DNA of 64,000 bases from a virus, in IMG/VR virus record IMGVR_UViG_2065487013_000003, positions 3,047 to 67,046 of that record, one strand, 5' to 3'. Each line of letters starts with the position of its first letter. Within the stretch, counting starts at the first letter, position 1. The position numbers and the translations under genes are program-made. This document shows positions 13,502 to 29,430 of the stretch, piece after piece. The notes beneath the pieces are model-generated. The model did no database searches and had not been told where the DNA came from. It worked only from the letters and a program-made list of their open reading frames with translations.

Positions 13502-13517
13502 CCATCAATTTCTGACT

Positions 13518-13542
13518 GGCCACCTTTTCGGTGGCCTTTTTT
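13518..13542 (+). terminator. Terminator-like hairpin before J
   Basis: GGCCACC-TTTTC-GGTGGCC followed by T6. Confidence 0.7.
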
Positions 13543-13553
13543 ATGGGTGCAAT

Positions 13554-16500
13554 ATGAACTACTCATTCACGGAAATCCCGTATTCAGGAAGAAAGGGCGG
13601 TGGTGGAAGCGCGCACACACCCGTTGAGCAACCAGACGATTTACTGTCTGAAGCCCGTTTAAAAATGCTGGTGGCCCTTTCTGAAGGAGAGATTCAGGGC
13701 AATTTGACTGCCCAGGATATTTACCTGAACGATACCCCACTGGCGAATGCTAACGGCACGTACAACTTTGAGGGCGTTACCTGGGAATTTCGTACCGGCA
13801 CACAGGACCAGGAATACATTCCAGGCTTGCCTGAGGTGAATAACGAACTGGCGGTTGGGGTAGTCGTAAGTGAATCGGTATCGTGGACCCGACAGTTTAC
13901 TAATCTGGCGCTTGATGCCGTCAGAATTAAGCTGAGTTTGCCCGTTCAGTACCGCTATAAGAATAACGGCGATATGGTTGGTACGGTAACCGAGTACGCC
14001 ATTGACCTTTCAACCGATGGAGGGAGCTGGCAGGAAGTGGTAAGGGGCAAATTTGACGGAAAAACCACGTCAGAGTATCAGCGGGATCACCGGATCAATT
14101 TTCCTAAGTCCTCTACCGGCTGGTCTGTTCGGGTTCGTCGCCTTACTCCTGATTCGACGGATTCAAAACTGGTTAACGCCTTTAGCGTCTTTTCTTTCGC
14201 TGAGGTAATCGACAGCAAGCTTCGATATCCCAATACCGCACTGCTGTACATTGAGGTTAATGCCAGCCAGTTTAATGGATCTGCGCCGAAGATAACCTGT
14301 AAGCCGAAGGGCAAAATCATTCGCGTACCTGATAACTATGATCCCGTTTATCGCACTTACTCCGGTAGCTGGTCAGGCGGGTTTAAATGGGCGTACAGCA
14401 ATAATCCCGCCTGGATTTTTTACGATCTCCTGCTGGATGAGATTTACGGTATGGGTTCGCGCATTGATGCCAGCATGGTTGATAAGTGGGAGCTGTACGA
14501 AATAGCGCGTTATTGCGATGAATCGGTTTCTGACGGCGCTGGAGGCACTGAACCCAGATTCACCTGCAATGTGTTTATTCAGAGCCAGCAGGACGCCTAC
14601 ACGGTACTTAACGACCTGGCAGCGGTATTTCGCGGGATCACGTTCTGGGGCAACGAGCAGCTTTTTGTTAAAGCTGACGTGCCGCAGGATGACGTTGACT
14701 GGGTTTATACAGCGTCAAACGTTATTAACGGCGAATTCTCTTACGCTGGCGGCAGCTACAAAAAACGTTATTCCTCATGCCTGGTGTCATGGTCTGACCC
14801 TGTCAACCATTACAGCGACACGGTGGAAGGGGTCTATGACTCAGCCCTGGTTGAGCGTTACCAGATTAACCAGCTCACGCTTACGGCTATAGGCTGCACA
14901 AAACAGAGTGAGGCGCACCGACGCGGCCGCTGGGCGCTGCTGTCGAGCGTTAAAGACGGCTCAGTGACCTTTGGTGTCGGGCTCGACGGCTACATACCGT
15001 TACCGTCGCAGGTGATAGGGGTTGCCGATCCGTTCCGTGCCGGTATTCAGAACGGCGGGCGTATGAAGTCGATTAAGGGGCGGGTCGTGACTCTTGATCG
15101 CGCCATTGACTATGAGGCCGGTGCTCGTCTGGTTATGAACATGCCTGATGGTACCACCCAGTCGCGCACCATTGAGGCCGTAGACAACGAAGAGCATACG
15201 GTAACCCTGACAACTGCATACAGCCAGACGCCCGTTTACGGAGCTGTATGGGCTATCGATAGCGACAAGGTAGCTATTCAGTATTTTCGGGTGATGTCTG
15301 TTGCCGCTAACGACGATGAAACAGGCGGTTTCACTATTTCGGCAATTCAGCACGACCCTGAGAAATATCGCTACATCGATGACGGCGTGCGTATCGAAAG
15401 CCCTCCGATCACAGTTACACCGATTAATGTTCTCAGTGCACCTGAAAACATTGTTATTCAGGAGACTGATTATGTCGCCCAGGGGCTGACTGTGGCGACG
15501 ATGTATGTTTCCTGGAGTAAGGTAGATGGAGCTATCCGCTATATTGCACAGTGGCGTAAGGATAACGGCGACTGGATAAACGTTCCTGTTACGAGTGCCC
15601 AGGGCTTCTCTGTTGAAGGGATTTACTCAGGCTCATACGATGTGAGGGTGAGGGCGCTAAATGCGCAGGAAACGTCTTCACCGTGGGGCTATGCCGATAA
15701 TACTTTCCTCTCAGGTAAGCAAGGCAAACCAGGCACTCCGACCAACTTCCGCGCCACCGATAACGTTGTGTGGAATATTGACCTTGCCTGGGGGTTCCCT
15801 GAGGGTTCAGGTGACACTGCTTATACGGAAATTGAGCGGGCCACCACGTCTGACTTCCAGAACCCACAACAACTAACCATGCTGGCCTATCCCGCAGCAA
15901 CATATCAGCACGGACCGATGAAAGCAGGCGTCAGTCAGTGGTATCGCGCTCGTCTGGTTGATCGTATCGGAAACGTTGGTGACTGGACTGAATGGGTTAA
16001 AGGTGTAACCAATCAGGATGCGTCAGATTTGATTGGTGACATCGACGAGGAAATTCAAAACTCAGGCGTTTGGGATCACTTCAATCAGGGGATCAACTCG
16101 AATCTTGAAGCGAGTCTGAATAACTCGCTCGCCATTGGTAAGGTCTCGTTCAGACAGTGGGAGCAGTACGGAGAAGTTAAAGCCGAAATCATTGTAGTGA
16201 CGACAACAATTGCCGCTGTTGATAAATCCCTGGCTGAGCTTACCACGAGCGTAAGGGCCCAGTTTGAAACACAGGATGCTCATATTCTGGAGGTCAGACA
16301 GGCCGCAGCCGATGCGCAGCAGGCAGTTTCTAAACTTGAAACCTCAGTAAACGCCTCGATTGGCGAGCTTACTGCAGGAGTGAACCAGAAATTCGATTCA
16401 TACGTTAAGTCAGACGGCACGGCTGCAGCGTATTACGCCCTGAACCTTGGTGTCGATAAGAACGGTGTGAAATATAACTGCGGCATGGCCTTTGGGATCG

Positions 16501-17228
16501 AACCGAAATCAGGTGGTGGCTATAAATCGACCGTTATTTTTGCGGCTGATACTTTCGGTATCTATACAGGAAGTACGCCAGGAAATTACGAGCTTGTTTT
16601 TGCTGTTGTGAATGGTCAGGCTATTCTGAAGGAAGCATTCATTGGTAACGGGACCATTACCAATGCCAAAATTGGCAACGAGATATACTCACTTAATTAT
16701 GTGAAAGGAATTAGCGGATGGTACATCGGTAAAAATGGCGAGGCTGAGTTTAATAACGCAACGTTCAGAGGGACAGTATATGCAACAAACGGTCAATTCT
16801 CAGGGGTTATAGAAGCCAAGTCATTCATAGGCGATGTGGCTAATGGCTATGTATTCACAGATACTGGATTGACTTCTGGTGCTGGAGCTGTAACACGTTC
16901 TTTCAGATACACAGACAGCGCCACAACCGCATTAGATAAGCAGGTATTGGTCATGTGTATGATTGATTCATATAAGCCATCTAAAGCCGGTGTAGGACAG
17001 GTCACAGTTACTATAGGTAGCGCATCAAAACAGTTTGTTATCCAGTTAGGAAATGAAGGGGTTTCCGCCTACAGTACGACGGATTGCGCCGCCATCATAT
17101 TTTCAGCCAGAACGTCAGCAAGAATTGTTGATTGTTCAATCTCTGCAAAATCAGACGGTGGGGGCGTTGCAATAAAATCTCCGTCGATGTTAATCATGCG
17201 CGGCTCTGGTTCATTCACTCAACTGTAA
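13554..17228 (+). CDS. J: Tip attachment / host specificity protein J
   Basis: GRKGGGG start, KLRYPNTAL, SNNPAWIFYD, FN3 repeats, DUF1983-like C-terminal part; start at ATG 13554. Confidence 0.93.
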   Translation: MNYSFTEIPYSGRKGGGGSAHTPVEQPDDLLSEARLKMLVALSEGEIQGNLTAQDIYLNDTPLANANGTYNFEGVTWEFRTGTQDQEYIPGLPEVNNELAVGVVVSESVSWTRQFTNLALDAVRIKLSLPVQYRYKNNGDMVGTVTEYAIDLSTDGGSWQEVVRGKFDGKTTSEYQRDHRINFPKSSTGWSVRVRRLTPDSTDSKLVNAFSVFSFAEVIDSKLRYPNTALLYIEVNASQFNGSAPKITCKPKGKIIRVPDNYDPVYRTYSGSWSGGFKWAYSNNPAWIFYDLLLDEIYGMGSRIDASMVDKWELYEIARYCDESVSDGAGGTEPRFTCNVFIQSQQDAYTVLNDLAAVFRGITFWGNEQLFVKADVPQDDVDWVYTASNVINGEFSYAGGSYKKRYSSCLVSWSDPVNHYSDTVEGVYDSALVERYQINQLTLTAIGCTKQSEAHRRGRWALLSSVKDGSVTFGVGLDGYIPLPSQVIGVADPFRAGIQNGGRMKSIKGRVVTLDRAIDYEAGARLVMNMPDGTTQSRTIEAVDNEEHTVTLTTAYSQTPVYGAVWAIDSDKVAIQYFRVMSVAANDDETGGFTISAIQHDPEKYRYIDDGVRIESPPITVTPINVLSAPENIVIQETDYVAQGLTVATMYVSWSKVDGAIRYIAQWRKDNGDWINVPVTSAQGFSVEGIYSGSYDVRVRALNAQETSSPWGYADNTFLSGKQGKPGTPTNFRATDNVVWNIDLAWGFPEGSGDTAYTEIERATTSDFQNPQQLTMLAYPAATYQHGPMKAGVSQWYRARLVDRIGNVGDWTEWVKGVTNQDASDLIGDIDEEIQNSGVWDHFNQGINSNLEASLNNSLAIGKVSFRQWEQYGEVKAEIIVVTTTIAAVDKSLAELTTSVRAQFETQDAHILEVRQAAADAQQAVSKLETSVNASIGELTAGVNQKFDSYVKSDGTAAAYYALNLGVDKNGVKYNCGMAFGIEPKSGGGYKSTVIFAADTFGIYTGSTPGNYELVFAVVNGQAILKEAFIGNGTITNAKIGNEIYSLNYVKGISGWYIGKNGEAEFNNATFRGTVYATNGQFSGVIEAKSFIGDVANGYVFTDTGLTSGAGAVTRSFRYTDSATTALDKQVLVMCMIDSYKPSKAGVGQVTVTIGSASKQFVIQLGNEGVSAYSTTDCAAIIFSARTSARIVDCSISAKSDGGGVAIKSPSMLIMRGSGSFTQL

Positions 17229-17243
17229 TTATTAATTCTCTAT

Positions 17244-17268
17244 ATCCCGCCAGTGAGCGGGATTTTTT
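17244..17268 (+). terminator. Terminator-like hairpin before the tail fibre gene
   Basis: ATCCCGC-CAGTGA-GCGGGAT followed by a T run. Confidence 0.7.
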
Positions 17269-17281
17269 ATGGGGTAAAACA

Positions 17282-18799
17282 ATGGCTAACGGCACTATTA
17301 ATTTAGTGAATAACTCAACGGCATTAACTGGCGTGGGGTCCAAATTCATTACAGAGGTAACACCCGGAGATTTTATCTACGCAGAAGTCGGGACGGTTCC
17401 TTATACGTTACCTGTTGATAAGGTAAACAGTGATACAAGCATTACGCTATTGCGTAAATTTACCGGGCCTACAATTAACGGTATTGCATGGACATTAATA
17501 CCGCGCCGTGCTCAAAATTCTGTCGCGTCCGCGCTTGCTGACCAGGTGGCTGAGGCCATACGGTTATCATTGAATAATGAAAATAACTGGCAGAAGTTAT
17601 TAACTGAAAACGGCAATGTAACGATAACCCGTCCTGATGGTTCTACTTACACTGGCCCATCATGGATTTCAATATTAGATACAACTCTCCAGACTGGTGA
17701 TTTTGGCTTGGGAGGGACTGCTCCACGAACTCCGGCAGTTTCATCTAATAGTTATGACAGCATCCCTACAGGGTTAGTCTCTGGTTTTTGGACTCACGCT
17801 GTAACAGGGGGGCCATATGCTTATACAATTACGTTGATGCAAGATGGCGGTGGAGTAAGAAATTCCCGGCACTTGATAATCCCCGCAAGTAATGCTGGAA
17901 GAATTGCGCTTCGTTGGGATGATGGCAGCAAGCTTGATTATCAATATTTTTATACGGATAAAAATAAACCAACGGCCGCTGATGTAAGTGCGTTGGCTCT
18001 AAATATAAATAGCTTACTGGTTGACCTTAATACGCTAGGATATGAAAGTAGTGCGGCTGTTTATGCTCAGAAATTAAATGCTAACGCATTGTTGACGAAT
18101 AACTATCCTATACAGCAAGCCGGTTCACTTTATGTGACACCTTCCGCTTATGGATGTCAGCAAATGTATGTAACATATGCTAATCGGTTGTTTCTTCGTG
18201 CTTTAAATGGCACTTATACAGGGAGTGGTCCTTGGACAAGGTGGGCTGAATTTTATAGTACTATTAACACTACCAGAGCCAGCGATGGCACTTTAAAAGC
18301 CGCCTCACCAATAGTAAAACTATTTGCTGATGGCTCGTTTGAAACTAACGACGAATCAGAGGGAGCAACCGTCACTCGCCTGGACGTGGGGCAATACCTT
18401 ATTGAAGGGTGTGAGGCGCTAAATTCAGACGCGGCCTGGGGAGGGTGGGACGGCGGTTTTGATATCCCCACAGACCGCAACAAACAACCGCTTATCTGGC
18501 TTGATTATGACGTTAACCCGGATGGGTCCGTACTCGTCAAAACCTACCATCGGACACATCCGGACTCCCCGGAGTTCGCCCGTAACAGCATCGGCTATAA
18601 AAATGATGCAGGTGATTTTATCGAGACGGTAGCGAACGGTGACCCGGTAGACATTCCATCGGATCAGTTTGTTAGCGTACGTGTTGAAATGCCGCAGGAT
18701 AGTATCTGGAACCAACGGCAGAAAGAAATTGCTGAAATGATGGATGCCGAAACATCCAACCAGGAGTCAACTACTGGTGACGAAGTGGAGAAAGGTTAG
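17282..18799 (+). CDS. Side tail fibre protein (pyocin-knob-like repeats, conserved C-terminal module)
   Basis: MANGTINL start, GDFGLGG, AGSLYV...QMYVTY, ASDGTLKAASPIVKLF; start ATG 17282. Confidence 0.85.
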   Translation: MANGTINLVNNSTALTGVGSKFITEVTPGDFIYAEVGTVPYTLPVDKVNSDTSITLLRKFTGPTINGIAWTLIPRRAQNSVASALADQVAEAIRLSLNNENNWQKLLTENGNVTITRPDGSTYTGPSWISILDTTLQTGDFGLGGTAPRTPAVSSNSYDSIPTGLVSGFWTHAVTGGPYAYTITLMQDGGGVRNSRHLIIPASNAGRIALRWDDGSKLDYQYFYTDKNKPTAADVSALALNINSLLVDLNTLGYESSAAVYAQKLNANALLTNNYPIQQAGSLYVTPSAYGCQQMYVTYANRLFLRALNGTYTGSGPWTRWAEFYSTINTTRASDGTLKAASPIVKLFADGSFETNDESEGATVTRLDVGQYLIEGCEALNSDAAWGGWDGGFDIPTDRNKQPLIWLDYDVNPDGSVLVKTYHRTHPDSPEFARNSIGYKNDAGDFIETVANGDPVDIPSDQFVSVRVEMPQDSIWNQRQKEIAEMMDAETSNQESTTGDEVEKG

Positions 18800-19050
18800 C
18801 GCTTAAAGCATTTATGGCGAATTTCATGGTTCAACTTGTCCAGACAATCATCACAGTAGTCCTTTTCAAGTGAGCACAACCACTTAAGCAATGGATGGCG
18901 TTTGCCGCAGTACAGACACTTTCTACCCAATATTGGTAAGGGGGCTAACATGGTCAGCATAAAAAAAAATAAAATTATGGTGAGCATCCATAGCGGCATC
19001 GTCAACATCCTGTCGGGAAAAAAGAGAAAAACCATAGCTTTAAAACCCAC
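18796..19050 (-). CDS. Hypothetical small Cys-rich, possibly membrane, protein
   Basis: Hydrophobic N-terminal part plus CxxC...C...CxxC; start codon uncertain. Confidence 0.45.
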   Translation of the reverse strand: MGFKAMVFLFFPDRMLTMPLWMLTIILFFFMLTMLAPLPILGRKCLYCGKRHPLLKWLCSLEKDYCDDCLDKLNHEIRHKCFKR

Positions 19051-19134
19051 TCAAAGATAATGGTTATTACCGATCGATTGCTGGTTATTGATCGCTCCTG
19101 ACGATCAATCTTGAAAGGATTCTCGATATAAATA

Positions 19135-19154
19135 TACTGTATGTATAAACAGTG
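19135..19154 (+). promoter_or_regulatory. LexA (SOS) box
   Basis: TACTGTATGTATAAACAGTG matches CTG-N10-CAG with TA-rich core; about 20 bp upstream of the ORF at 19172. Confidence 0.9.
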
Positions 19155-19171
19155 TTTCGGGAGGGCATAGC

Positions 19172-19411
19172 ATGCCGAGGCAATACGAAATAGAGGGCGC
19201 TTTCCGCGCCGCTGTCAAAATTGAGCAAACTGGACGGCGCACCGTCACCACAGAGGATTTTGTAAAACAGCTTGAGGAGGTCAACTGGAACTGGTCGCTG
19301 AAGCAGGCTAACAACTGGATAGAGTGTTACGTGACGACCTTCAAGGATATCTCTTCCGATGAAGGGGAAGCGCGTACCTTCATGCTGTTCAATCCCAACG
19401 GGGGGCTTTGA
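19172..19411 (+). CDS. SOS-regulated 79-aa protein of unknown function, partner of the umuD-like gene
   Basis: GGGAGG RBS, LexA box upstream, stop 1 nt before the next ATG. Confidence 0.75.
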   Translation: MPRQYEIEGAFRAAVKIEQTGRRTVTTEDFVKQLEEVNWNWSLKQANNWIECYVTTFKDISSDEGEARTFMLFNPNGGL

Positions 19412-19412
19412 G

Positions 19413-19790
19413 ATGGGTTTTCCTTCACCAGCTACTGACTACATTGAAGAACGGATCTCGCTGGATAAGTTATTCATTTCTCACCCGAGCGCCACATATT
19501 TCATGAAGGCGGCAAACACGTACTGGCGTGCAGGTATAACCCAGGGAGCGCTTCTAATCGTGGATTGCTCGGCTACACCTTGCGACGGTTCGGTGGTTGT
19601 CTGCAAGCTGGCGGGGGAGTTTCATATACGGCGATTCAGGACTCATCCATATAGGCATCTGGAAAGCCTGGGCGGTGATGGTCGTAAGGACAGGATAAAC
19701 ACAGATGATGATGACGGGATTTTCGGCGTGATTTTGCACGCGGTGAATGACATGCGAACAATGGAGTTTGACGATAACCCAGTGATGTAA
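19413..19790 (+). CDS. umuD: UmuD'-like (HumD-like) S24 family protein
   Basis: Begins MGFPSPATDY, equivalent to the post-cleavage UmuD' N-terminus; catalytic Ser and Lys are not evident. Confidence 0.8.
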   Translation: MGFPSPATDYIEERISLDKLFISHPSATYFMKAANTYWRAGITQGALLIVDCSATPCDGSVVVCKLAGEFHIRRFRTHPYRHLESLGGDGRKDRINTDDDDGIFGVILHAVNDMRTMEFDDNPVM

Positions 19791-19796
19791 TCGAAT

Positions 19797-19816
19797 GCGC
19801 GCAATTAATTGCGCGC
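19797..19816. repeat. Perfect 20-bp palindrome between convergent genes
   Basis: GCGCGCAATTAATTGCGCGC. Confidence 0.9.
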
Positions 19817-19832
19817 CCTAATGATTCGCTGT

Positions 19833-20663
19833 TTATAAATTTCTGTATGGAAGATCGGATCTTTCTACACTAATATAAAATTCAGGTTTCTTTTCTTTTT
19901 TAGCAATTCTTTTGCTTATTAGGCTGGTAAATAAAACCAAAGAGTCTTCAGAAAGAAGTTGATTATCTATTGGACCTATCATAACGCTCTCAATCGAAGA
20001 GTGGGGGAATTCAAACTCCAAATATGGAATTAAAACATCTCCTTTTGCTCTAAACTTAATATCGTCATCATCAGGTCCGCAGCTAATTACCAGTCTTTTC
20101 TCTTGTTCTTCGTAAAATGCAGCGTGTTTAAAGGTTAGTGCATAAATATCAACCATATAAGATAGCTCAACTTCTAACCAGTGAGGTTCTGACTCATATA
20201 CCTTAAGCATGTGAGGGATTAATGAATCTTTGATTATATCATTGGCGTCATCTAGCGCATCGCCTTCATCAAGTATGTATTTGCAATCAAGAAGGTAAAT
20301 TTCTTTTTTAGCTTGTAATTCAGCAAAAGCTGATTCGTCAAATTCTACTGAGAACATTCCATAGCTGCGCCACTGACTAAGAGAATCAGGGTCTAAGCTA
20401 AATGACGAAACGAAAATTTTATTCTCATTAGGAGAGAATAAATCCTGTGTAGTAACGTACGCTATAGCAACTTTTAACCGGTCAATAAATTCTTGTGAGC
20501 AATCTTCAGGATAGTCATCGTAAGCATTAAGTGCATCAATCAAGATCCTATAACCTGCCCTCAATTCTTCTTTGTCATTTAAAAATTTGTAATCGGTTAA
20601 CCAAAGTTTAGAATTTTCTATAATAGATTTAACAGCATTAAGATCCGTATAATGATAAATCAC
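19833..20663 (-). CDS. DUF2971-like protein (AT-rich moron, candidate defence effector)
   Basis: IYHYT, FVSSFS, LSQWRSYG, FKHAAFYEEQEKR motifs; GTG start 6 nt after GGAG (ORF-finder start 20678). Confidence 0.78.
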   Translation of the reverse strand: MIYHYTDLNAVKSIIENSKLWLTDYKFLNDKEELRAGYRILIDALNAYDDYPEDCSQEFIDRLKVAIAYVTTQDLFSPNENKIFVSSFSLDPDSLSQWRSYGMFSVEFDESAFAELQAKKEIYLLDCKYILDEGDALDDANDIIKDSLIPHMLKVYESEPHWLEVELSYMVDIYALTFKHAAFYEEQEKRLVISCGPDDDDIKFRAKGDVLIPYLEFEFPHSSIESVMIGPIDNQLLSEDSLVLFTSLISKRIAKKEKKPEFYISVERSDLPYRNL

Positions 20664-20862
20664 TATGTTCTCCAACAAAGGTAAAAGTTTGATGCAATCA
20701 TAACTAACTTTTACTTGAAGAGGAAAGTTATGACACGCTTCAGGGTACGCTGGTCAATGAGCAAAGGTTGCACTAGAAGATTTGCCAAACATTTTTGAAA
20801 GAATGGATGCATCATAATGCACATTTAATGAGCTGATAACACAAGGATTTTGCGTGCGCATC

Positions 20863-20890
20863 CACGATAAAACCACGAATGCACACGAAA
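20863..20890. repeat. Triad of CACGA repeats (probable integrase arm-type sites)
   Basis: CACGA at 20863, 20874 and 20884 (10-11 bp period). Confidence 0.55.
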
Positions 20891-20964
20891 AAAGTGATAA
20901 GTATTTGAAATTTAGTGCACGTATTTACAGCTATTTCAGGTCGGTTTTTGCTCGCTTTCGTTCT

Positions 20965-20977
20965 TAACTACTTGATA
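20965..20977. promoter_or_regulatory. IHF binding site in the att arm
   Basis: TAACTACTTGATA is a perfect YAANNNNTTGATW; a 1-mismatch copy lies at 20898-20910. Confidence 0.7.
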
Positions 20978-21007
20978 TTTAACAAAAACAGATAAGGGCT
21001 GGCAGAA

Positions 21008-21037
21008 ACAGGAATCGTATTCGGTCTCTTTTTATCT
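21008..21037 (+). other. att core equal to the 3' end of the sdsR(ryeB)/ryeA sRNA locus, in an attP-like context
   Basis: ACAGGAATCGTATTCGGTCTCTTTTTATCT matches the SdsR terminator region as recalled; the 5' GACCGAAT arm and the chromosomal flanks are absent. Confidence 0.82.
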
Positions 21038-21068
21038 ATTTGTTTCATAAGGGTTTTTTCGGTCTCAA

Positions 21069-21097
21069 CACGAAATCCCCCGAAAATTACTCGAATA
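21069..21097. repeat. Triad of CGAA-containing repeats (probable arm-type sites next to int)
   Basis: CACGAAAT 21069, CCCGAAAA 21079, CTCGAATA 21090. Confidence 0.55.
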
Positions 21098-21110
21098 TTC
21101 CATATCCTGT

Positions 21111-22196
21111 CTAAACCATAACATACTCTGCACCGCGTGCGTCCAGGTATTTTTTGGTCATTGTTAAATTTTTGTGGCCGAGCAAACGTTGAGCAAATTC
21201 CTCTCCGCGTTCCTTTTCATAGAGCCTGCTCGCCAGACTTCTGATCTCATGGAAAGGCGGTGGGTTAGGTCCGAATTTTAACCCGGTCGAATCCCTTATC
21301 TCTGCGAAGGCCTGGGTGAGCCCGTCAGGAGTTAGTGGCCCCGGCTTTCTCCCACCACGGCGAACCGGCGAGTAAAGCATAAAGTCGGAGGGGTTATTTA
21401 CCCGGCATCGCTCAATGACATCCTGCAACACAAGCCCGGCGACGTCCAGCCTCAAATCAAGGGGGAGCGCCAGTTTGTGACCTGTTTTCTCCTGAGTAAC
21501 GAAAAGCCTCCCGTCTTTAACGTCACTGAATCTGAACAGCGAAATATCCTCACGCCGCTGGCCGGTGACCAGTGCCAGATCGCATGCATTTGGTGCCCAG
21601 TCAGAATGAGTTAACGCGGCCTGGCGAATGACGTTGAAATGTTCGAGCAACAGGCGCTCTCGCTTAACTTTCGGTGTCGGCGTTCGCGTCGGCTCGGCCG
21701 GGTTCCTGTCGACATGTCCTTCTACGATCGCCTCCCTGAAGATGTCCATTAAGACAGAACGCAGCCCGGAAGCCATGCTCTTTTTATCGCAGAGAATGTA
21801 CGATTCAAGAAATGAGGCGATGTCCTTTGTCGTAACAGAAGCGAGGGGAATATTGCCGAACTCTTCCTTAATAGTGGCGATCTGGTTTCGCCTGACCTTC
21901 ATCGTGTTTGGTTTCAGCTCGCGCCGCTCGAGAATCACCTCGTAACGCTCCAGCCATGCGGCCACTGTGAAAGTGGGCACGTCTTTTATGCGATCCAGGA
22001 GAGAAGAGGGAAGGTAATTCTGATCGATGTAGTTATTGGCCTCAATGGCCTGGGCAACAGCGTCCTTGCGATCAATCCGGCCAAGAGAGATCTCCTGCCC
22101 GGTCACCGGATTGCGCCAGCTGTAAAGTCTGTCTCTTTTACGATAGGTCAGGTTACGTGGCAGGTTAGCGTCGTAACGTACTGGCCTTTTCGCCAT
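21111..22196 (-). CDS. int: Tyrosine integrase (lambda Int family)
   Basis: LPRNLTYRK arm-binding domain; TGQR, FHEIRS, LGH, KYL catalytic residues. Confidence 0.97.
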   Translation of the reverse strand: MAKRPVRYDANLPRNLTYRKRDRLYSWRNPVTGQEISLGRIDRKDAVAQAIEANNYIDQNYLPSSLLDRIKDVPTFTVAAWLERYEVILERRELKPNTMKVRRNQIATIKEEFGNIPLASVTTKDIASFLESYILCDKKSMASGLRSVLMDIFREAIVEGHVDRNPAEPTRTPTPKVKRERLLLEHFNVIRQAALTHSDWAPNACDLALVTGQRREDISLFRFSDVKDGRLFVTQEKTGHKLALPLDLRLDVAGLVLQDVIERCRVNNPSDFMLYSPVRRGGRKPGPLTPDGLTQAFAEIRDSTGLKFGPNPPPFHEIRSLASRLYEKERGEEFAQRLLGHKNLTMTKKYLDARGAEYVMV

Positions 22197-22437
22197 GAGT
22201 CAGTCTCTCCAGTAAAGTGCCGCCGGACGGCAATTTGGTATGTTTCGGTTTAGCGCGCAGATTCTTCTTACGCGGATCCACGTAGATAGCGTCAGGCTGA
22301 ACCTTATATTCCTTTCCGTGCAGCTCTGGCGCGGGATAAATTCGCCCCTCCCGCGTCCATCGACGCAGAGTAGAAAGGGAGGGTGGAGTCGTGTAGACCT
22401 CAGCAGCCCATTCCTGCAAGTTGAGAAGCTTAGCCAT
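22165..22437 (-). CDS. xis: Excisionase
   Basis: LQEWAAEVY...STLRRWTREGRIYPAPELHGKEY; overlaps the int start. Confidence 0.93.
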   Translation of the reverse strand: MAKLLNLQEWAAEVYTTPPSLSTLRRWTREGRIYPAPELHGKEYKVQPDAIYVDPRKKNLRAKPKHTKLPSGGTLLERLTHGEKASTLRR

Positions 22438-22459
22438 GAGAACTCCTTAGCCGCCTGGC

Positions 22460-22488
22460 ATTATAAGCGAGGCCGCGTTGACGTGTTG
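22460..22488 (-). promoter_or_regulatory. Candidate xis-int promoter (perfect -10, poor -35)
   Basis: TATAAT at 22465-22460; the -35 position reads CAACAC. Confidence 0.45.
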
Positions 22489-22504
22489 ATTAATCGAAAT
22501 CAGG

Positions 22505-22530
22505 CAAAAATAAACCCGCCGAGGCGGGTT
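22505..22530 (-). terminator. Terminator upstream of xis
   Basis: AACCCGCC-TC-GGCGGGTT followed by TATTTTT on the minus strand. Confidence 0.8.
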
Positions 22531-22557
22531 GAATGATGAGAGATTTTAATTGGGTGC

Positions 22558-23091
22558 TTAGTTAATTTTTAATTCTCGCTTAGCTTCTGCGACTAAATCA
22601 CTGAGCAGTTTTTCAGAGAGTTTGAGGTCCTTTTCTGACGCTTCATAGCTTTCAATAGCATCCTCATACCAATCATCCATCATTTTCTTTCTGGCATTAA
22701 CATAGACATCGAGCAAGCTTTTGACTTTGGTAGTTAATGTGAAATCAGCTAACTGCGCTATTCTTTCAAGCTCCTGAAGATCAAGCCAATACTCAGTTCT
22801 TAACTTCTCTTCGATCTCTTTCGGATGTGGTTTGAACCGAGACTCACCAGGTTCCATTCGCGCATATTCGCAACGGAGGAAGTAGTCATTGCTCATCTTA
22901 ATCCGATACGCAATATTGATGATTTCTGTGAACGCTTCCAATCGTTTTTCCCACCACTTCTCTTTGTAAAACTTATTCAAAGCAAACTTGGTAGAGAAAT
23001 ATGCTGCTAGCGCAGCTACAAGTAATGGAACAACAAATTTTGATAGAACATCCGTTAAATCCAGCGTTGTTTGCACAGGAATGGCGGTCAT
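22558..23091 (-). CDS. AT-rich moron, N-terminal TM helix plus helical domain, unknown function
   Basis: 177 aa, TAAGGA RBS, lower GC than neighbours, own terminator. Confidence 0.75.
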   Translation of the reverse strand: MTAIPVQTTLDLTDVLSKFVVPLLVAALAAYFSTKFALNKFYKEKWWEKRLEAFTEIINIAYRIKMSNDYFLRCEYARMEPGESRFKPHPKEIEEKLRTEYWLDLQELERIAQLADFTLTTKVKSLLDVYVNARKKMMDDWYEDAIESYEASEKDLKLSEKLLSDLVAEAKRELKIN

Positions 23092-23134
23092 TTCATATCC
23101 TTAAATCATTAAAACTGTACTCATCATAACTTGA

Positions 23135-23356
23135 TTATCGAATATGCTTAAGCGCATGTTCTTTTCTTTCCTGGCACTCCGCGCAAGTCTGGCAGCCAGG
23201 AACGGCAGCGCGCCGCGGCTCGGGAATTTGTTCGTCGCATTCTTCACAACGCTCAGCTGATACGGCGTTGCGGTTCAGCCGGTGAGCGGAAAGGGCAGCG
23301 TTACGCTGAAGCTCTTCAATCTCTGCTGCTGTGTCGATGATGTCGGCCATGGTCAA
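23135..23356 (-). CDS. TraR/DksA C4-type zinc finger protein
   Basis: CEEC...IPEPRRAAVPGCQTCAEC. Confidence 0.9.
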   Translation of the reverse strand: MTMADIIDTAAEIEELQRNAALSAHRLNRNAVSAERCEECDEQIPEPRRAAVPGCQTCAECQERKEHALKHIR

Positions 23357-23445
23357 TGCTCCCGGAACTGTCGGTTAATTCGGGCGAAGGTAAACGCCAG
23401 CAATAAAAAAGGCCGCTTCAGCGACCTGGTGATTAGTGCCTTCAT
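23353..23445 (-). CDS. Small conserved phage peptide (MKALITRSLKRPF...)
   Basis: 30-aa ORF coupled by ATGA overlaps on both sides. Confidence 0.55.
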   Translation of the reverse strand: MKALITRSLKRPFLLLAFTFARINRQFREH

Positions 23446-23633
23446 GCTGCACCGCCTTCATTCTTCTCGGCTTCGACCGCCATCTGCTCAAGCCGTCGCG
23501 ATAACTCGGCGGCCAGCGTCTGGAATTCTTCTTCGGTCGCCACCGGGATTGGCACAAAGCGAATCCCGATTTGCGCCAGGTGATTGGCAATTTCGAGGCT
23601 TTTCCTCAAATCAACAGGTGAGGCTCTGTTCAT
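23442..23633 (-). CDS. DUF1382-like phage protein
   Basis: MNRASPVDLRKSLEIANHLAQIGIRFVPIPV. Confidence 0.7.
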   Translation of the reverse strand: MNRASPVDLRKSLEIANHLAQIGIRFVPIPVATEEEFQTLAAELSRRLEQMAVEAEKNEGGAA

Positions 23634-23947
23634 TCCGCACCGCCAGCGTGCCGCAGCCAGATGCATACCGCGCCATCTTCCGTGTCGTGAATTGAACCGA
23701 CAAACCAACCACCACCGGCGGGAGTTTGGGGCTGCCACGATGAAATGTCATAGCCGTCAACATCTGGATCGACGTCATCCTCATCGCGGTACTCCACTAT
23801 CCACTCAAGACCGTTCTTCTCCAGCCATGCGTTGAACTCAATGGGCGATATGGATTCGCGTCCATCGCAAAATTCATTGTAAAGCGGGTGGGTCCAGTAG
23901 CCGTATTGGTCGCGCTCGACGGGTAGGGCTTTAAATTCTGTTGTCAT
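23630..23947 (-). CDS. Hypothetical early protein
   Basis: Coupled ORF with LPVERDQYGYWTHP and GGWFVGSIHDTEDGAVC. Confidence 0.7.
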   Translation of the reverse strand: MTTEFKALPVERDQYGYWTHPLYNEFCDGRESISPIEFNAWLEKNGLEWIVEYRDEDDVDPDVDGYDISSWQPQTPAGGGWFVGSIHDTEDGAVCIWLRHAGGAE

Positions 23948-24162
23948 TGTTCGGCTCCAAACCGCCCGTTAAGGCGGCCAGTTTTAACGACGAACTCAAG
24001 GAGGCTAACTCCCAGAGCTTCAATTTTCTTGTGATGCTTGTTGATGATGGGAGGCACCGTTTCGTTCCAGTTAGGCTTTGGCTTCTTGCGCATGGTCTGC
24101 TGAATTTCTTCGGTGCAGCGGCGGCAGGCGGCGCGGATGGCGTTGTCTGTTTCTGGCGTCAT
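23944..24162 (-). CDS. Hypothetical early protein
   Basis: GGAGG RBS and ATGA coupling. Confidence 0.65.
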   Translation of the reverse strand: MTPETDNAIRAACRRCTEEIQQTMRKKPKPNWNETVPPIINKHHKKIEALGVSLLEFVVKTGRLNGRFGAEQ

Positions 24163-24710
24163 GCGGCCTCCCGGCGGGCGAGAAGTTTCGCCCCGAAAGC
24201 CATCAGCTCGTCCCGGTCCACAGTTGCGAAATGGCAGTGTGTACGCGGGTACGGTCGCCAGATTATGAGCATCGACCCTTTGTTGTTGCCGCTTACCGGC
24301 TTACCGGTGACCGGGTTGATAAATGCCAGCCGCCCGGCTGTGATGAAGCGCACCTCGCTGGCGGTCTGGATAGCCTCTTTGAACCAGCCAACCGAAGTGT
24401 CTGCCGGTACCAGCATGACCGTGCCGATCTGATTTGCGCTCTCGGCTGCGGCCTTCTTAACGAAAGGTGTAATGTCGCTGTAAGGTGGGTTCAGCCAGAC
24501 GTAGCCGGGAATACTCAGGTAATCAGCCCAGGGCGTTTCCAGAGTGTTCTCCTCGGATGTGATGAACTTTCTGCACAGCGCGTTATGCGGCGCCGCGGCG
24601 GCATCCAACTGGAAGCAGAATTCAGCATCAAGGGAAGCGAAGAGAGCTGGCGGAGTGCGCCAGAGGTCGCGCTGATCCGCTGGCGTGTTGCTGCCGGTGT
24701 AATCAGTCAT
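24159..24710 (-). CDS. dam: Phage N6-adenine DNA methyltransferase (phage Dam family)
   Basis: WRTPP...LDAAA...WLNPPYS motif. Confidence 0.9.
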   Translation of the reverse strand: MTDYTGSNTPADQRDLWRTPPALFASLDAEFCFQLDAAAAPHNALCRKFITSEENTLETPWADYLSIPGYVWLNPPYSDITPFVKKAAAESANQIGTVMLVPADTSVGWFKEAIQTASEVRFITAGRLAFINPVTGKPVSGNNKGSMLIIWRPYPRTHCHFATVDRDELMAFGAKLLARREAA

Positions 24711-25171
24711 GCCGCCTCCCTTCTGCGTGCCAGCAACGGCCCGTCGTATCCTGCGTTAAAGCTTTCAACCATCGCCCGGCAACACGCCGGACAGCAGCTG
24801 TAAATCCTTTGCGGCTCTCCGTCGAATTTCCAGTAAGAGGAACGCATAGACGCGGAGAACGTGGAGCAGATATCGCAATGAAAGGCTCCCGTTTCCAGCA
24901 CCCTCATTAGCTGAGGCTCGGTGAGTTCGAACTTTCTGGCGATAACCGCATGCTCAAGACCGGCATCAAGCAGGGCTTCAATCAGCTGCAGATCGTCGAT
25001 GGTTAATTTCCCGCAGCGGTAAAGACCCATGCTGCTGGCTTTCATCTGGATAGATGCTTTGGTGCGCTGTAAGGTTTCACACAGTTCATCCATATCCATG
25101 TACAGATAAGTTTTTGACAAAAAGACGGCCTGAGATTCAGGCCAGGGCATTGAGTGCATCTGCATTGTCAT
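24707..25171 (-). CDS. Hypothetical HTH / zinc-binding protein
   Basis: ELCETLQRTKASI HTH-like segment; CDIC...CCPAC. Confidence 0.6.
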   Translation of the reverse strand: MTMQMHSMPWPESQAVFLSKTYLYMDMDELCETLQRTKASIQMKASSMGLYRCGKLTIDDLQLIEALLDAGLEHAVIARKFELTEPQLMRVLETGAFHCDICSTFSASMRSSYWKFDGEPQRIYSCCPACCRAMVESFNAGYDGPLLARRREAA

Positions 25172-25173
25172 AA

Positions 25174-26235
25174 CTACTCCTCAAGGCTTTTCGCCAGGAT
25201 AACTTTGACGAGACGGTCTGCAGCAGATTTCTGCGCCGGAACGGAGGCAATGATCGTTGGCCGGTCTTTTTCGGCATTCACGCAGACACCACCCCATCGG
25301 GAAATCAGGAAGAAGTCTTCCATCTCAGAGGAGCCCGCATTGCTTGCCAGACCCTCAATCATCTGGACGATATCGACTATTGAGTGGTCAGCCATCAGCC
25401 GCTGAACGGCGTAGCCGAAAGCGTTGATCATCACCGCGTGGAACTGAATGTAGTCGCGCTTATAGTCTGCCTGACTGGTACCGTGGCGAATCGCTTCGAT
25501 CTGCGTCATGGCCAACCAGGCCTCCCAGATGGATTCGATGTCACCCATTTCCAGCGGCTTACTGCCCGCGTTGGCAAACTTGGCCGTCGCGTCGCTAAGC
25601 GCCTTGAAGCTCACCCACAACTTACTTTTCGCCGGAACGACGTTGTGCTCGAAGTCTGTCACCTCTGCGAAGGTGTCGTTCTGAGACAGGAACGTCACCA
25701 TCCCCTGTGCAACTTCATTACGCCCGTCATAGGCCATGTTGATCGCAGCGGAAGGTTTAGAGACGTTGTTATTGATATCGGAGAAGAACTGCTGGCGTGC
25801 CTTCAGCGGGAGGTTATGGGTCAGCATTAATGGGATGCTGATCGGCTCTCCGTATGTCCGGCAGAACTCCGCCAATCCGGCGGCGCGGTGCTGGCCGTCG
25901 AACAGCTTAATTACCGCATCCATCGGGAAGCGTGCGACGCCAACATTCGTATTACCGAACTCTTCAAACTCAATATCCGCGTCGCAGTTGCCGACCAGCG
26001 GCGGGATGATGAAGGGCTCTTTGTTTTGGTATGCATTGACGAGGTACTGGTAAAACTTCTTCACTCGCGCCTGGTTAATTTCGCGTTGAGAACGCTCGAG
26101 CGTGCTGCCGTGATTGTCGGAGGCAAGTATGCGCGTCAGCGCGCGGGCCGGTGCCGTTATCATGTAAGTCGCCGTGCCACCCTGCATTCCGCGCGACGCC
26201 GGGAACTCGAAGAAATAATCGCCTACTTTGCTCAT
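25174..26235 (-). CDS. DGQHR-domain (DndB-like) protein
   Basis: QREINQARV, PPLVGN, LFDGQHRAAG, QQFFSDINNNVSKPS. Confidence 0.88.
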   Translation of the reverse strand: MSKVGDYFFEFPASRGMQGGTATYMITAPARALTRILASDNHGSTLERSQREINQARVKKFYQYLVNAYQNKEPFIIPPLVGNCDADIEFEEFGNTNVGVARFPMDAVIKLFDGQHRAAGLAEFCRTYGEPISIPLMLTHNLPLKARQQFFSDINNNVSKPSAAINMAYDGRNEVAQGMVTFLSQNDTFAEVTDFEHNVVPAKSKLWVSFKALSDATAKFANAGSKPLEMGDIESIWEAWLAMTQIEAIRHGTSQADYKRDYIQFHAVMINAFGYAVQRLMADHSIVDIVQMIEGLASNAGSSEMEDFFLISRWGGVCVNAEKDRPTIIASVPAQKSAADRLVKVILAKSLEE

Positions 26236-26399
26236 GCACCCTCCCGCTCCGGATCGTTAACATCCCAGCCATTACGCTCAATATTGGTTTGCAGCCGCTT
26301 GTCTCCGACCTCTTCAATGCTACGGCCGGTAATCTCTGCGACTTCAGAGTTTGAGTGTCGCCACAGCAGCGCCAGCTCTTCGAGTGACCACGCTTTCAT
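26232..26399 (-). CDS. Small HTH-like protein
   Basis: [27 protein letters not shown]; ATGA-coupled; absent from the ORF track. Confidence 0.6.
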   Translation of the reverse strand: MKAWSLEELALLWRHSNSEVAEITGRSIEEVGDKRLQTNIERNGWDVNDPEREGA

Positions 26400-26824
26400 A
26401 GCACTGACTCCATTTCGTCGATGTAGAGGCCCTGAGCAATCAGGCGGCGACGGCGGGCGGCACGTTCAATGCACTCCTGCCGTCTACCTTCCTGTGATTG
26501 CTCAATGGCGCGCCGGGTGAACAGGCGCGATTTACCCTGCGGTGTTACGACTTTTGGCTTCGTGACCAGGTCGAATGCCCGGTCGCAGATGCCGTCCTCG
26601 TTGATCCACTTTTTCGACTCAACGATCTGCGCTATCTGTCCGGAGCCGCGGGTAATGCCATTGGCGACCCGGTTAAACTCGATGAGCGTTACGCCAAACT
26701 TCTCTGCGATTTCGCTGCCGGTTACCGGGCGGCCGCGCGTCTGAATCATCCAGATAACGCGTTCACGGAGGCCAGAAAATTGCCCGGTTCGCCCGGGCCT
26801 GCGGTAAAAGGGTGTGCGTTTCAT
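26396..26824 (-). CDS. Hypothetical (winged-HTH-like) protein downstream of exo
   Basis: [16 protein letters not shown]; ATGA overlap with the exo stop. Confidence 0.65.
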
Positions 26825-27501
26825 TTCCACTGCTCCCCGAACGTGAAGCCGATCTCCGCCAGGGCCTCGTCCATCTTCTCGATGAACTCCGGCACCATTT
26901 CGTTGAAATCGGACATGTATTGCGGATCCCGCTCAACGACGACGTGGTGAATTCCTTCGCGTTTCATGCGCGGGTCGTAGTTGGCAAAGAACCAGGCGTC
27001 TTTCCCGGTCACCCACATGCTGTACTGTACCTGGGCCATGTACGCAGACTTGATGGCTTCGAAACCGCCAAGGCGGAATTTCATGAAGTCGCGGGAGGTG
27101 AAAGGGCATTTAAGCTCAAGGCCGAACCCATTACTGCACAGGCCGTCAGGGGAGCACGCGGTGCGCATGCTCTCGTCACGGAACAGGATCGGAGACTCCG
27201 TGACTTTCACGTCCGTGGTGAACTCGAAGAGGGTGCGGGCGTCTTCCTCGTACTGCTTGCCCCAGGCCAGCGCCTTGGCGTTAACCTCTGGCGCGACGCC
27301 GGTGCATACCTCGGCGAGCAGCGTGTGGAAGTAGGACATTTTCATGTCTGTCCACTTCTTTCCCGATCGTGGCTTGGATATGACGTTGTGCACTTCAGAG
27401 GCGGTGATAACGCCGAGGCGCAGCCGGTGCCACGCCTCATCACCCTGTTGGATAGTGGTAACGTCAATACCGGTCCGGGCCAGGATAATTTCTGGTGTCA
27501 T
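26821..27501 (-). CDS. exo: Lambda exonuclease (Red alpha)
   Basis: [35 protein letters not shown]. Confidence 0.96.
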
Positions 27502-28343
27502 GCTGCCGCCTTAGCCCTTTTCTGAAGGAAGCCAAACCCTTTCTGTGCCTCTTCTTCAGTGAGTTCTGACGCCTCAAGAATTTGCCGTTTGAAGATGTCG
27601 CTGCACAGTGGTAGGAAGTCTTTCTCCCAGTCTTTATCCAGAGTTGTTAAGAGATCGGTGATCGCTTGAAGCGTTTCTTCGCTTGCTGCTGGTGGAAGTG
27701 CTTCTGTGGTACTTCGCGGCGTGACGTCACGCATATCGACATCCAGAGATTTGCCTTCCATTTCTTCGGCGGTAGGCTGCTGCCCAATCTCAGGCCATGC
27801 CTTGCGCAACGCTTGGGCTTCTGCGCATTTCGCCAGCTGTCCATACGGGCGTTTTTTCCACATCGCATTCGGCGCCGTGGTGTCGCGGCCGCCGGTGGCG
27901 TAGTTTTCAATCCAGTATTCTTTGGCGCTGAACTCGACGATCTCGCCGCTGGGCATGCGCTTATAAACGGTGTATTTGCACCACTGAGGGAAAGTCACTT
28001 CGACACCAGTAAGTGTCTGAGTAACGTCAGGACCGAACTCTGGTTCGCGGGCACCGGCATAATCACCTGAGCGGTCCGCCTGAATGCGGTAAAGCCCGAT
28101 GCCCGGCATGACCACGTCGCGCCAATCACCTTTACCTGTTTTCGAGTCTTTGACGTACATCGGAACGAGGTGGACAGGTTTGAGCAACGGATCCAGCTGG
28201 CGGGCGCGGCAGTAATCAAGCGCCATCATTACCGATTCGTCTTTGGCGCCAGGGTAGATGCTATTCTTCAGCGCGCTCCAGGTGGAGACATCGACACCTA
28301 TCTCCTGAAGTGACGTCGCTGTGATTGTTAATTCGTTTGCCAT
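27498..28343 (-). CDS. bet: Recombination protein Bet (Red beta)
   Basis: [38 protein letters not shown]; start ATG 28343. Confidence 0.92.
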
Positions 28344-28361
28344 CGTTAATCCCCTCAAAAA

Positions 28362-28646
28362 TTAAAACGGGCAGCCGGTACGGTGCTCCCAGTCGTATTC
28401 CGCCTGGGCGTAAGCAACGGCCGAAATGAAATCGTTGTAGGCCTCACCAGCTTTATCGCTGCGAAGTCCTTCGTATGGACTGGAGTCAATCGGTACCGTG
28501 AAGTGGAAGAGGCCAGACGGCTCTTTTGGCATCATGTCGATGATTTGCTGCGCCCGGTCGTCGATCCACTTCTCTTTCTCGTCGGTGAGCTGCTGCTCAA
28601 CCCAGCGCCGATCTTCGATGCGGTCATTAGTGAGGTATGCGTTCAT
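28362..28646 (-). CDS. Gam-like protein (gam position)
   Basis: MNAY..DRIE...W start resembles Gam; lies directly upstream of bet. Confidence 0.5.
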   Translation of the reverse strand: MNAYLTNDRIEDRRWVEQQLTDEKEKWIDDRAQQIIDMMPKEPSGLFHFTVPIDSSPYEGLRSDKAGEAYNDFISAVAYAQAEYDWEHRTGCPF

Positions 28647-28718
28647 GGCTGAACTCCTGAAATTTGCATGTGCAGATCCCGCCCGCAGAAAGCCAGGCCG
28701 ATCGGATGAATAGGGTGG

Positions 28719-29384: not shown

Positions 29385-29430
29385 ACACTAACCCTCTGTA
29401 TGCACCCATAAAAAAGGCCGCCTAAGCGAC

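What the first reader, a model, noticed from the sequence alone, without database searches (positions are those of the whole stretch)
20860..21110. Two unrelated prophages joined at an attP-like junction built on the sdsR/ryeA core
Seen: the tail end of prophage A and the integrase of prophage B flank a 30-bp copy of the SdsR 3' end, and neither flank is chromosomal. There are repeat triads with a 10-11 bp period on both sides and IHF motifs at 20965 and 20898. Known (from memory, verify): the ryeA/ryeB locus is a phage insertion hotspot. Inferred: B integrated into A's attR (or A into B's attL), creating a hybrid P-O-P' site. That would allow excision of A alone, B alone or A+B, and cross-use of Int/Xis.
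Basis: partly seen in the sequence, partly recalled or inferred. Interest (0 to 1): 0.75.

Follow-up and report, generated by a model that had tools for sequence, protein, structure and literature searches.

The report
Two prophages sharing one attachment site
Two unrelated prophages sit head to tail in an Enterobacter chromosome at the known sdsR/ryeA phage insertion hotspot, joined by a hybrid attachment site; this is a clean but ordinary case of tandem lysogeny.

Summary
A 30-bp copy of the SdsR 3' end lies at 21008-21037. To its left are the tail, UmuD'-like and moron genes of lambdoid prophage A. To its right are Int and Xis of the phi80-like prophage B. There is no sdsR body here. Triads of CNCGAW at a 10-11 bp period occur only at 20863 and 21069 in the 64-kb window. 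A perfect IHF consensus lies at 20965-20977.

The junction is a hybrid att site: A's P arm, the core, then B's P' arm. B's P' arm follows an intact sdsR in 22 of 24 IMG/VR records. A's P arm abuts chromosomal DNA in three other records. A second core copy closes B 46.5 kb to the right, followed by Enterobacter chromosome. The same P_A-core-P'_B junction recurs in two other, diverged assemblies. A P_C-core-P'_B junction lies inside one provirus record.

Caveats: the record starts inside A, so A's integrase and the outer attL are missing. The source is a mixed termite metagenome whose k=31 contigs all break at the core, so no read-level bridge could be checked.

The hotspot (Balbontín 2008) and tandem prophages with attR/attL hybrid junctions are both already described. 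Cross-use of Int/Xis and joint excision remain untested. Interest is low to moderate.

The parts
1..21007 (+). Late half of prophage A (lambdoid siphovirus): head morphogenesis, major head, tape measure, minor tail, J, fibre and right-end cargo. Its terminase lies in the 3 kb of the record before the window. Its early half, integrase and outer attL are not in the record.
   Evidence: PHROG and Pfam hits. ORF map of the whole record. No similarity to B by blastn or tblastx.
13437..17228 (+). Tip attachment / host specificity protein J of A (1263 aa)
   Evidence: PF24801, PF09327, PF13550; phrog_31
17132..18799 (+). Tail fibre of A (555 aa)
   Evidence: PF25670; phrog_1591
19172..19790 (+). Small ORF plus UmuD-like gene, the right-end cargo of A. 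In L121 this operon directly abuts the P_A arm.
   Evidence: phrog_3893, phrog_811, PF00717. L121 is 93% identical over 19267-19791.
19833..20678 (-). AT-rich 281-aa ORF (moron) between the UmuD-like gene and the P arm. Absent at this place in L121 and L042.
   Evidence: Only phrog_1762 (unknown function) and no Pfam hit. Alignment of P_A arms.
20826..21007 (+). P arm of prophage A (about 180 bp), conserved in six other-sample records
   Evidence: Alignment of window, L121, L122, L123, L030 and L042. Conservation starts at TTTAATGAGCTG. In L030, L042 and L123 this arm is followed by chromosomal B'.
20863..20890 (+). Triad of putative arm-type Int sites (CACGAT, CACGAA, CACGAA; 11 and 10 bp apart)
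   Evidence: One of only two such triads in the window, 0.02 expected. Conserved in all P_A arms.
20965..20977 (-). Perfect IHF consensus TATCAAGTAGTTA, 31 bp before the core
   Evidence: One of 2 matches in 64 kb. Conserved in the P_A arms.
21008..21037 (+). 30-bp core, equal to the last bases of sdsR (half terminator stem, loop, 3' stem, T-run) plus ATCT. 33 bp (21005-21037) are shared with the copy at B's right end.
21038..21110 (+). P' arm of prophage B with a triad of putative arm-type sites (CACGAA, CCCGAA, CTCGAA at 21069, 21079, 21090)
   Evidence: Near-identical arm after intact sdsR in L003, L019, L023, L078 and 22 IMG/VR records.
21111..22196 (-). Integrase of B (361 aa, lambda type)
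   Evidence: PF09003, PF22022, PF00589; phrog_7244. The identical protein lies next to sdsR-yebY in L003.
22165..22437 (-). Excisionase of B (90 aa)
   Evidence: PF07825 Exc; phrog_629
21008..64000 (+). Prophage B (phi80-like / Enterobacter-phage-like). It carries int, xis, repressor, terminase, portal, tape measure and tail fibre. It runs on beyond the window to its attR (P_B-core-B') at record 70512-70541, for a total of about 46.5 kb.
   Evidence: Its P_B arm resembles the attR arms of the single lysogens L069, L080 and L088.

Best explanation
Window 20826-21110 is a hybrid lambda-type attachment site made by two successive site-specific integrations into the same chromosomal target. That target is the 30-bp 3' end of the sRNA gene sdsR (ryeB), here in an Enterobacter-like host.

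The inferred layout is: yebY-sdsR-core-[P'_A int_A ... A late genes ... P_A]-core-[P'_B int_B xis_B ... B late genes ... P_B]-core-B' (the ryeA 5' side and a DUF535 gene).

The middle site serves as attR for prophage A and as attL for prophage B. Either B's attP recombined with A's attR, or A's attP recombined with B's attL. The product is the same either way.

Each phage keeps its own pair of cognate arms. Int_A/Xis_A acting on attL and the hybrid site would release A alone. Int_B/Xis_B acting on the hybrid site and attR would release B alone.

Shown here: the anatomy, the cognate arm pairings in other genomes, and the recurrence of such junctions. Inferred: the outer attL of A (outside the record), recombination activity, and independent excision.

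The junction copy is not an sRNA gene. It has no sdsR promoter or body, and the terminator stem is broken.
For: Anatomy in this record:
- The core is identical to the sdsR 3' end.
- There is no sdsR body at the junction.
- A second core copy lies at record 70512. It is followed by DNA 91% identical to the empty-site or attR flank of Enterobacter genomosp. O, and 89-91% identical to that of E. chinensis and E. sichuanensis. That side carries the DUF535 gene.
- A and B each have a full, unrelated set of head and tail genes.
- Arm-type triads and an IHF site sit where a lambda-like att site has them.

Cognate arm pairings elsewhere:
- B-type P' arm plus Int follows intact sdsR in L003, L019, L023, L078 and 22 of 24 IMG/VR records.
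- These are paired with P_B-type attR arms in L069, L080 and L088.
- The P_A arm is followed by chromosomal B' in L030, L042 and L123. It is paired there with a different P' arm and an int_A remnant.

Recurrence of hybrid junctions:
- The same P_A-core-P'_B junction is in L121 and L122. These come from other samples and are diverged elsewhere.
- A P_C-core-P'_B junction lies inside a single provirus record, G001, that also holds yebY-sdsR-core-P'_C.

Source sample:
- The source runs contain sdsR-core fragments, a 5.6-kb contig starting at the core, and an int_A allele, at depths similar to A's (the int_A loose end matches L123).

Literature:
- The hotspot is described in PMC7380047 and PMC3333887 (citing Balbontín 2008).
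- Tandem prophages with an attR-a/attL-b junction that excise separately are described in PMC9934374.
- PMC8112680 states that phages sharing one attB integrate in tandem.
Against: - The record begins inside A's terminase region. A's integrase, its early genes and the third (outer) core copy are therefore not on the assembly.
- All Logan k=31 contigs of the two source runs stop at the core, and none bridges A to B.
- The sample is a mixture. It shows a third P arm attached to B', and a second int allele with 18 SNPs.
- The depth flows around the core fit one A-B double lysogen plus other strains. They fit two single lysogens equally well.
- The A arm and B's int show different depth ratios between the two runs (1.75 against 2.76).
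- No hybrid junction was seen among about 100 GTDB species-representative genomes carrying the core. Tandem arrays at this site are therefore uncommon.
Confidence: 0.8

Rival explanations
1. Assembly chimera. The metagenome holds one strain lysogenic for A only and another lysogenic for B only. The assembler joined A's right end to B's left end through the shared 33-bp repeat.
For: - The source is a mixed termite metagenome.
- Four left arms and about four right arms meet at the core in the source runs.
- The depth flows balance for two single lysogens without needing an empty-site strain.
- The depth ratios of A and B between the two runs differ.
- No contig bridges the core (all).
Against: - The same P_A-core-P'_B junction appears in two unrelated assemblies (L121, L122). 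In L122 the B-type arm is followed only by an integrase stub, so it cannot come from joining to an intact B prophage.
- A hybrid junction with another partner lies inside one provirus record.
- A 33-bp repeat is shorter than almost any read, so an overlap assembler would need true spanning reads. This last point is inference; the read type was not available.
Confidence: 0.12
2. Not a junction of two elements but the attP of a single phage, drawn in vegetative order (late genes, att, int, early genes). 'A' and the int side of 'B' would then belong together.
For: - The gene order J, fibre, cargo, att, int, xis is exactly the lambda vegetative map.
- P_A-core-P'_B recurs in three assemblies.
Against: - B is complete on its own. 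It runs from P'_B/int through terminase and tail genes to its own P_B-core-B' end.
- P'_B pairs with P_B-type arms in single lysogens.
- P_A pairs with a different P' arm and int_A in L123/L124 and L042/L068.
- The record holds two unrelated late-gene sets.
- No sequenced phage in the 50,697-record collection carries either arm combination.
Confidence: 0.03
3. The tandem array is real, but A is a decayed, immobile remnant. The hybrid site would then be a fossil that works only as B's attL.
For: - Most other carriers of the P_A arm or the int_A type are short decayed elements: 7.1 kb in L123/L124, 12.8 kb in L042/L068, and a truncated int in L148.
- A's early half is not on the record.
Against: - A's 24 kb of late genes here are uninterrupted long ORFs from terminase to fibre.
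- The P_A arm, triad and IHF site are intact.
- An int_A allele and a 5.6-kb contig starting at the core are present in the source runs at about A's depth.
Confidence: 0.2

Closest known systems
ryeA/ryeB (sdsR) insertion hotspot of Salmonella enterica (Balbontín et al. 2008, J Bacteriol 190:4075; phage PhiW104)
   Same: Same target: the last bases of ryeB/sdsR, which are internal to ryeA. The phage copy regenerates the sdsR 3' end at attL and replaces the ryeA 5' context (PMC7380047, PMC3333887; L003).
   Different: - The host here is Enterobacter-like, not Salmonella.
- The core identity is 30 bp rather than the 23 bp quoted.
- Two different phages occupy the site at once.
- The primary paper could not be read, so I do not know whether it already shows tandem arrays.
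Tandem prophages prophiT36-2a / prophiT36-2b of Mycobacterium abscessus (PMC9934374)
   Same: Two different prophages sit at one attB, joined by an attR-a/attL-b hybrid site. Formation was proposed by attP x attR integration, and each phage was shown to excise on its own.
   Different: - Different phylum and a different integration-dependent immunity system.
- There, excision was shown by PCR. Here nothing was tested experimentally.
Tandem prophages of STEC/EPEC E. coli that share one att sequence (PMC8112680), and classical lambda tandem polylysogens (the latter from my own knowledge)
   Same: The 'traditional view' is that phages sharing an attB integrate side by side. The middle site carries one phage arm on each side.
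   Different: That paper's own novelty is prophage-in-prophage integration at attB copies inside prophages. That is not the case here: the core sits at A's end, not inside A.
Bacteriophage lambda attP architecture (from my own knowledge)
   Same: - An Int with an N-terminal arm-binding domain, and an Xis of the Exc family.
- A P arm of about 180 bp with arm-type sites about 120-145 bp from the core, and an IHF site near the core.
- A P' arm with three adjacent arm-type sites.
   Different: The core and arm sequences differ, and the target is an sRNA gene's 3' end. The binding sites are inferred from repeats and conservation only.

Membership tests
Lambda-type tyrosine-integrase attachment site | Core sequence identical to the bacterial target | tested here: met
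   The 30 bp at 21008-21037 are identical to the sdsR 3' end in L003 and in about 100 enterobacterial genomes.
Lambda-type tyrosine-integrase attachment site | Adjacent integrase with arm-binding and catalytic domains, plus an excisionase | tested here: met
   PF09003, PF22022 and PF00589 in the ORF at 21111-22196. PF07825 in the ORF at 22165-22437.
Lambda-type tyrosine-integrase attachment site | Repeated arm-type sites in both arms, and an IHF site | tested here: met
   CNCGAW triads occur only at 20863 and 21069, with 0.02 expected. A perfect IHF consensus lies at 20965-20977. Both are conserved in the P_A arms. Binding itself was not tested.
Lambda-type tyrosine-integrase attachment site | Int-dependent recombination at the site | not testable with these tools
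   Needs PCR for excision circles or an in vivo att x att assay.
sdsR/ryeA insertion hotspot occupant | Element bounded by direct core repeats between yebY-sdsR and the ryeA 5' side | tested here: inconclusive
   The right boundary (P_B-core-B') and the middle copy are on the record. The left boundary with sdsR and yebY is outside the record. It is seen only as fragments in the source runs and in relatives (L003).
Tandem prophage array with hybrid attR-a/attL-b | Each arm of the middle site is cognate to a different element, as shown by single lysogens | tested here: met
   P'_B lies next to sdsR in 22 of 24 IMG/VR records and in L003 and L019. P_A lies next to B' in L030, L042 and L123.
Tandem prophage array with hybrid attR-a/attL-b | Physical continuity of A and B on one molecule | tested here: inconclusive
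   They are contiguous in the assembled record. However, all k=31 contigs of the source runs break at the core and the sample is mixed. Indirect support comes from L121, L122 and G001.
SdsR_RyeB sRNA gene (Rfam RF00111) | Full-length match to the covariance model, with the terminator hairpin | tested here: not met
   16.1 bits against a gathering score of 38. The 5' half of the terminator stem is replaced, so the hairpin does not form. Only the last 30 nt are present.

The most novel reading that the evidence does not exclude
The A-type and B-type integration modules may be cross-compatible. Their integrases are 52% identical with very similar arm-binding N-termini, and all four arms carry CACGAAA-like sites. 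If so, the recurrent P_A-core-P'_B site would be more than a passive scar. It would be a working exchange point. Int/Xis of either phage could then act on non-cognate arm pairs. Possible outcomes are excision of A+B as one unit, B excision being triggered by A, or phages leaving with swapped arms. The fact that three of seven known P_A arms are followed by a B-type arm would then reflect preferential capture of B-type phages by A's attR.
Probability: 0.15. Interest if true: 0.45.

Novelty: new member of a known kind. Interest (0 to 1): 0.25.

Why it matters
It adds an Enterobacter example to a hotspot described in Salmonella. It also shows that at least three integrase/arm lineages (A, B and C types) compete for the same 30 bp of an sRNA gene.

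For annotation, the practical lesson is that this 70.9-kb 'virus' record, scored 100% complete, is really one whole prophage plus half of another. The att anatomy gives exact boundaries for splitting it.

Biologically, occupancy separates SdsR from its antisense partner RyeA. Published work reports that this changes the expression of both. A double occupancy does not obviously add to that effect.

Tried and rejected
- **Rfam at gathering threshold** found only isrJ in the window and no sdsR or ryeA.
- **The exact 281-aa protein** is not on record in the assembly collection.
- **Records behind L003 and L004** are not held, so their far prophage ends could not be read.
- **The Balbontín 2008 paper** (PMC2395037) is not held.
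- **Read laying on the source runs** returned only k=31 contigs that stop at the core. It neither supports nor refutes the A-B bridge.
- **An early idea that the DNA after the second core copy is a third integrase remnant** (a shared TTGTTAAATTTTTGTG) was dropped. That flank matches empty Enterobacter sites and carries the DUF535 gene.
- **Four GTDB loci** (L012, L071, L110, L113) looked like possible further hybrid junctions. None could be confirmed: L071 and L110 have the chromosomal DUF535 gene downstream, and L113 (EAL) and L012 (DUF2000) have no integrase.
- **E. coli complete genomes** hold only distant relatives of the integrase (81-84% identity, 5 of 5426 genomes) and not the junction.
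- **The phage collection** holds neither att arm.
- **G003**, an intact int_A-type prophage, shares no late genes with A. Its record stops before attR, so it could not show the P_A/P'_A pairing in an intact phage.

Full report
**What is there**

The window is bases 3047-67046 of a 70,925-b IMG/VR record that comes from a termite metagenome. At 21008-21037 lies ACAGGAATCGTATTCGGTCTCTTTTTATCT. In L003, a genome contig that encodes exactly the same integrase, these 30 bases are the end of an intact sdsR gene lying just after yebY. Sequence identity with the window begins precisely at ACAGG.

In the window the bases before the core are not sdsR. Rfam gives only 16 bits for SdsR_RyeB and 19.5 bits for SraC_RyeA, both far under their gathering scores. 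The 5' half of the terminator stem is replaced, so the hairpin is lost.

**The flanks**

- To the left lie the tail tip protein J, a tail fibre, a small ORF plus a UmuD-like gene, and an AT-rich 281-aa ORF.
- Further left are head, tape-measure and minor-tail genes.
- To the right lie a lambda-type integrase with an arm-binding domain and an Exc-family excisionase.
- These are followed by a repressor, then terminase, portal, tape measure and tail fibre of a second phage. Its early region resembles phi80 and several Enterobacter phages.
- The two phages share no DNA or translated similarity.

**The att anatomy**

Three CNCGAW sites at a 10-11 bp period start at 20863 (left arm) and at 21069 (right arm). 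These are the only two such triads in the 64-kb window, with 0.02 expected by chance. A perfect IHF consensus lies at 20965-20977 on the minus strand, one of two in the window. The left arm from about 20826 to the core, including the triad and the IHF site, is conserved in six records from other samples.

**Whose arms are they?**

A scan of species-representative genomes for the core gave 115 stretches.

- Most show sdsR-core followed either by a genus-specific chromosomal flank (an empty site) or by a phage arm plus integrase.
- The window's right arm and integrase type follow intact sdsR in L003, L008, L019, L023 and L078, and in 22 of 24 IMG/VR records.
- In Enterobacter genomosp. O, the matching attR (L069) lies 48 kb away. 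Its P arm resembles the one before the second core copy in our record.
- That second copy lies at record 70512-70541. It is preceded by B's P arm and followed by DNA 91% identical to the chromosomal flank in Enterobacter genomosp. O, and 89-91% identical to the empty sites of E. chinensis and E. sichuanensis.
- So B is a complete, bounded prophage of about 46.5 kb in an Enterobacter-like host.

The window's left arm (P_A) is followed by chromosomal flank in L030, L042 and L123. In L123/L124 and L042/L068 it is paired, across a decayed element of 7-13 kb, with a different P' arm and an integrase remnant of another type. An intact integrase of that type (in G003) is 52% identical to B's, with a very similar arm-binding N-terminus.

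The junction is therefore P_A-core-P'_B. It is the attR of A and the attL of B in one site.

**Is the join real?**

This is the weak point. The record starts inside A, so A's integrase and the outer attL are missing. The only data served for the two source runs are k=31 contigs, and these necessarily break at a 33-bp repeat.

Those contigs show that the sample is a mixture:

- The sdsR body, P_A, P_B and a third arm (P_C, attached to B' through a core with one mismatch) all enter the core.
- P'_B, an int variant with 18 SNPs, a 5.6-kb contig, and B' all leave it.
- The depths fit a double lysogen plus other strains. They fit two single lysogens equally well.

Other evidence speaks against a chimera:

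- The same P_A-core-P'_B junction is found in L121 (another metagenome). L121 shares only the UmuD-like operon and the att region with the window.
- It is also found in L122, where the B-type arm is followed only by an integrase stub.
- In G001, a single provirus record reads yebY-sdsR-core-P'_C-int_C, then 39 kb of prophage, then P_C-core-P'_B.
- The source runs also hold an int_A allele identical over 30 nt to L123's, as expected if A has its own attL there.

I put the tandem reading at about 0.8 and a chimera at about 0.1.

**How it works**

This part rests on established lambda biology and is inferred here. One phage integrated into attB. The second phage's attP then recombined with the attR or attL of the first. 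Each prophage keeps both of its cognate arms, so each should excise on its own with its own Int and Xis, leaving the other correctly bounded. Joint excision, or one phage's proteins acting on the other's arms, would need cross-recognition. The shared CACGAAA-like arm motif and the related arm-binding domains make that conceivable, but nothing here tests it.

**Comparison with what is known**

The hotspot is published for Salmonella (Balbontín 2008, as summarised in PMC7380047 and PMC3333887). Tandem prophages at a shared attB are the 'traditional view' (PMC8112680). A hybrid attR-a/attL-b junction with independent excision of each member has been shown in M. abscessus (PMC9934374).

Such junctions are uncommon at this site. 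Among B-type arms in IMG/VR, 2 of 24 follow another phage's arm. No hybrid junction could be confirmed among the GTDB representatives. This is a new instance of a known kind, well defined but not surprising.

Noticed in passing
window 1-64000 (whole IMG/VR record of 70,925 b): The record is scored by CheckV as 100% complete. It is really one whole prophage (B, about 46.5 kb), the late half of a second unrelated prophage (A), and about 390 b of host DNA. The core copies give exact split points.
   Followed up: yes
source runs X1/X2, at window 21005-21048: A third phage arm (...ATATACCGCAGAAATATAAATTGCAGGTAT) enters a core copy with one mismatch and continues into the same chromosomal flank B'. 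A second int allele (18 SNPs over 21013-21667) is also present. The sample therefore holds at least one more strain or element using this site.
   Followed up: partly
window 19833-20678 (-): The AT-rich 281-aa ORF is an insertion relative to L121 and L042, where the UmuD-like gene directly abuts the P_A arm. L122 has a 77%-identical copy. Only a PHROG family of unknown function matches.
   Followed up: partly
window 39915-39991 (+): Rfam isrJ (RF01393) matches at 54 bits, inside prophage B. This sRNA is otherwise known from the Salmonella Gifsy-1 prophage (PMC7380047).
   Followed up: no
L002:505-1176 (-) = record 69516-70187: B carries an SRAP (YedK-like, PF02586) gene at its right end, just inside attR. 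It lies next to a 430-aa ORF that I did not scan (it may be umuC-like). A carries a UmuD-like gene at the equivalent position, so both phages have SOS-related cargo beside their P arms.
   Followed up: partly
L123 / L124 (7.1 kb), L042-L068 (12.8 kb), L148: Several Enterobacter assemblies hold short, decayed A-type elements between two core copies, with truncated int_A genes. The A-type module seems to persist mostly as remnants.
   Followed up: partly
L060 and L095 (Leclercia adecarboxylata NCTC13032, LR590464.1): Two exact core copies lie 147 kb apart on one chromosome. That is far more than one prophage. It could be a large composite island or a rearrangement at the hotspot.
   Followed up: no
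L099 (CACSKA010000003.1): A contig labelled Chryseobacterium sp. 18061 carries a typical enterobacterial sdsR locus. It is probably a mislabelled or contaminated assembly.
   Followed up: no
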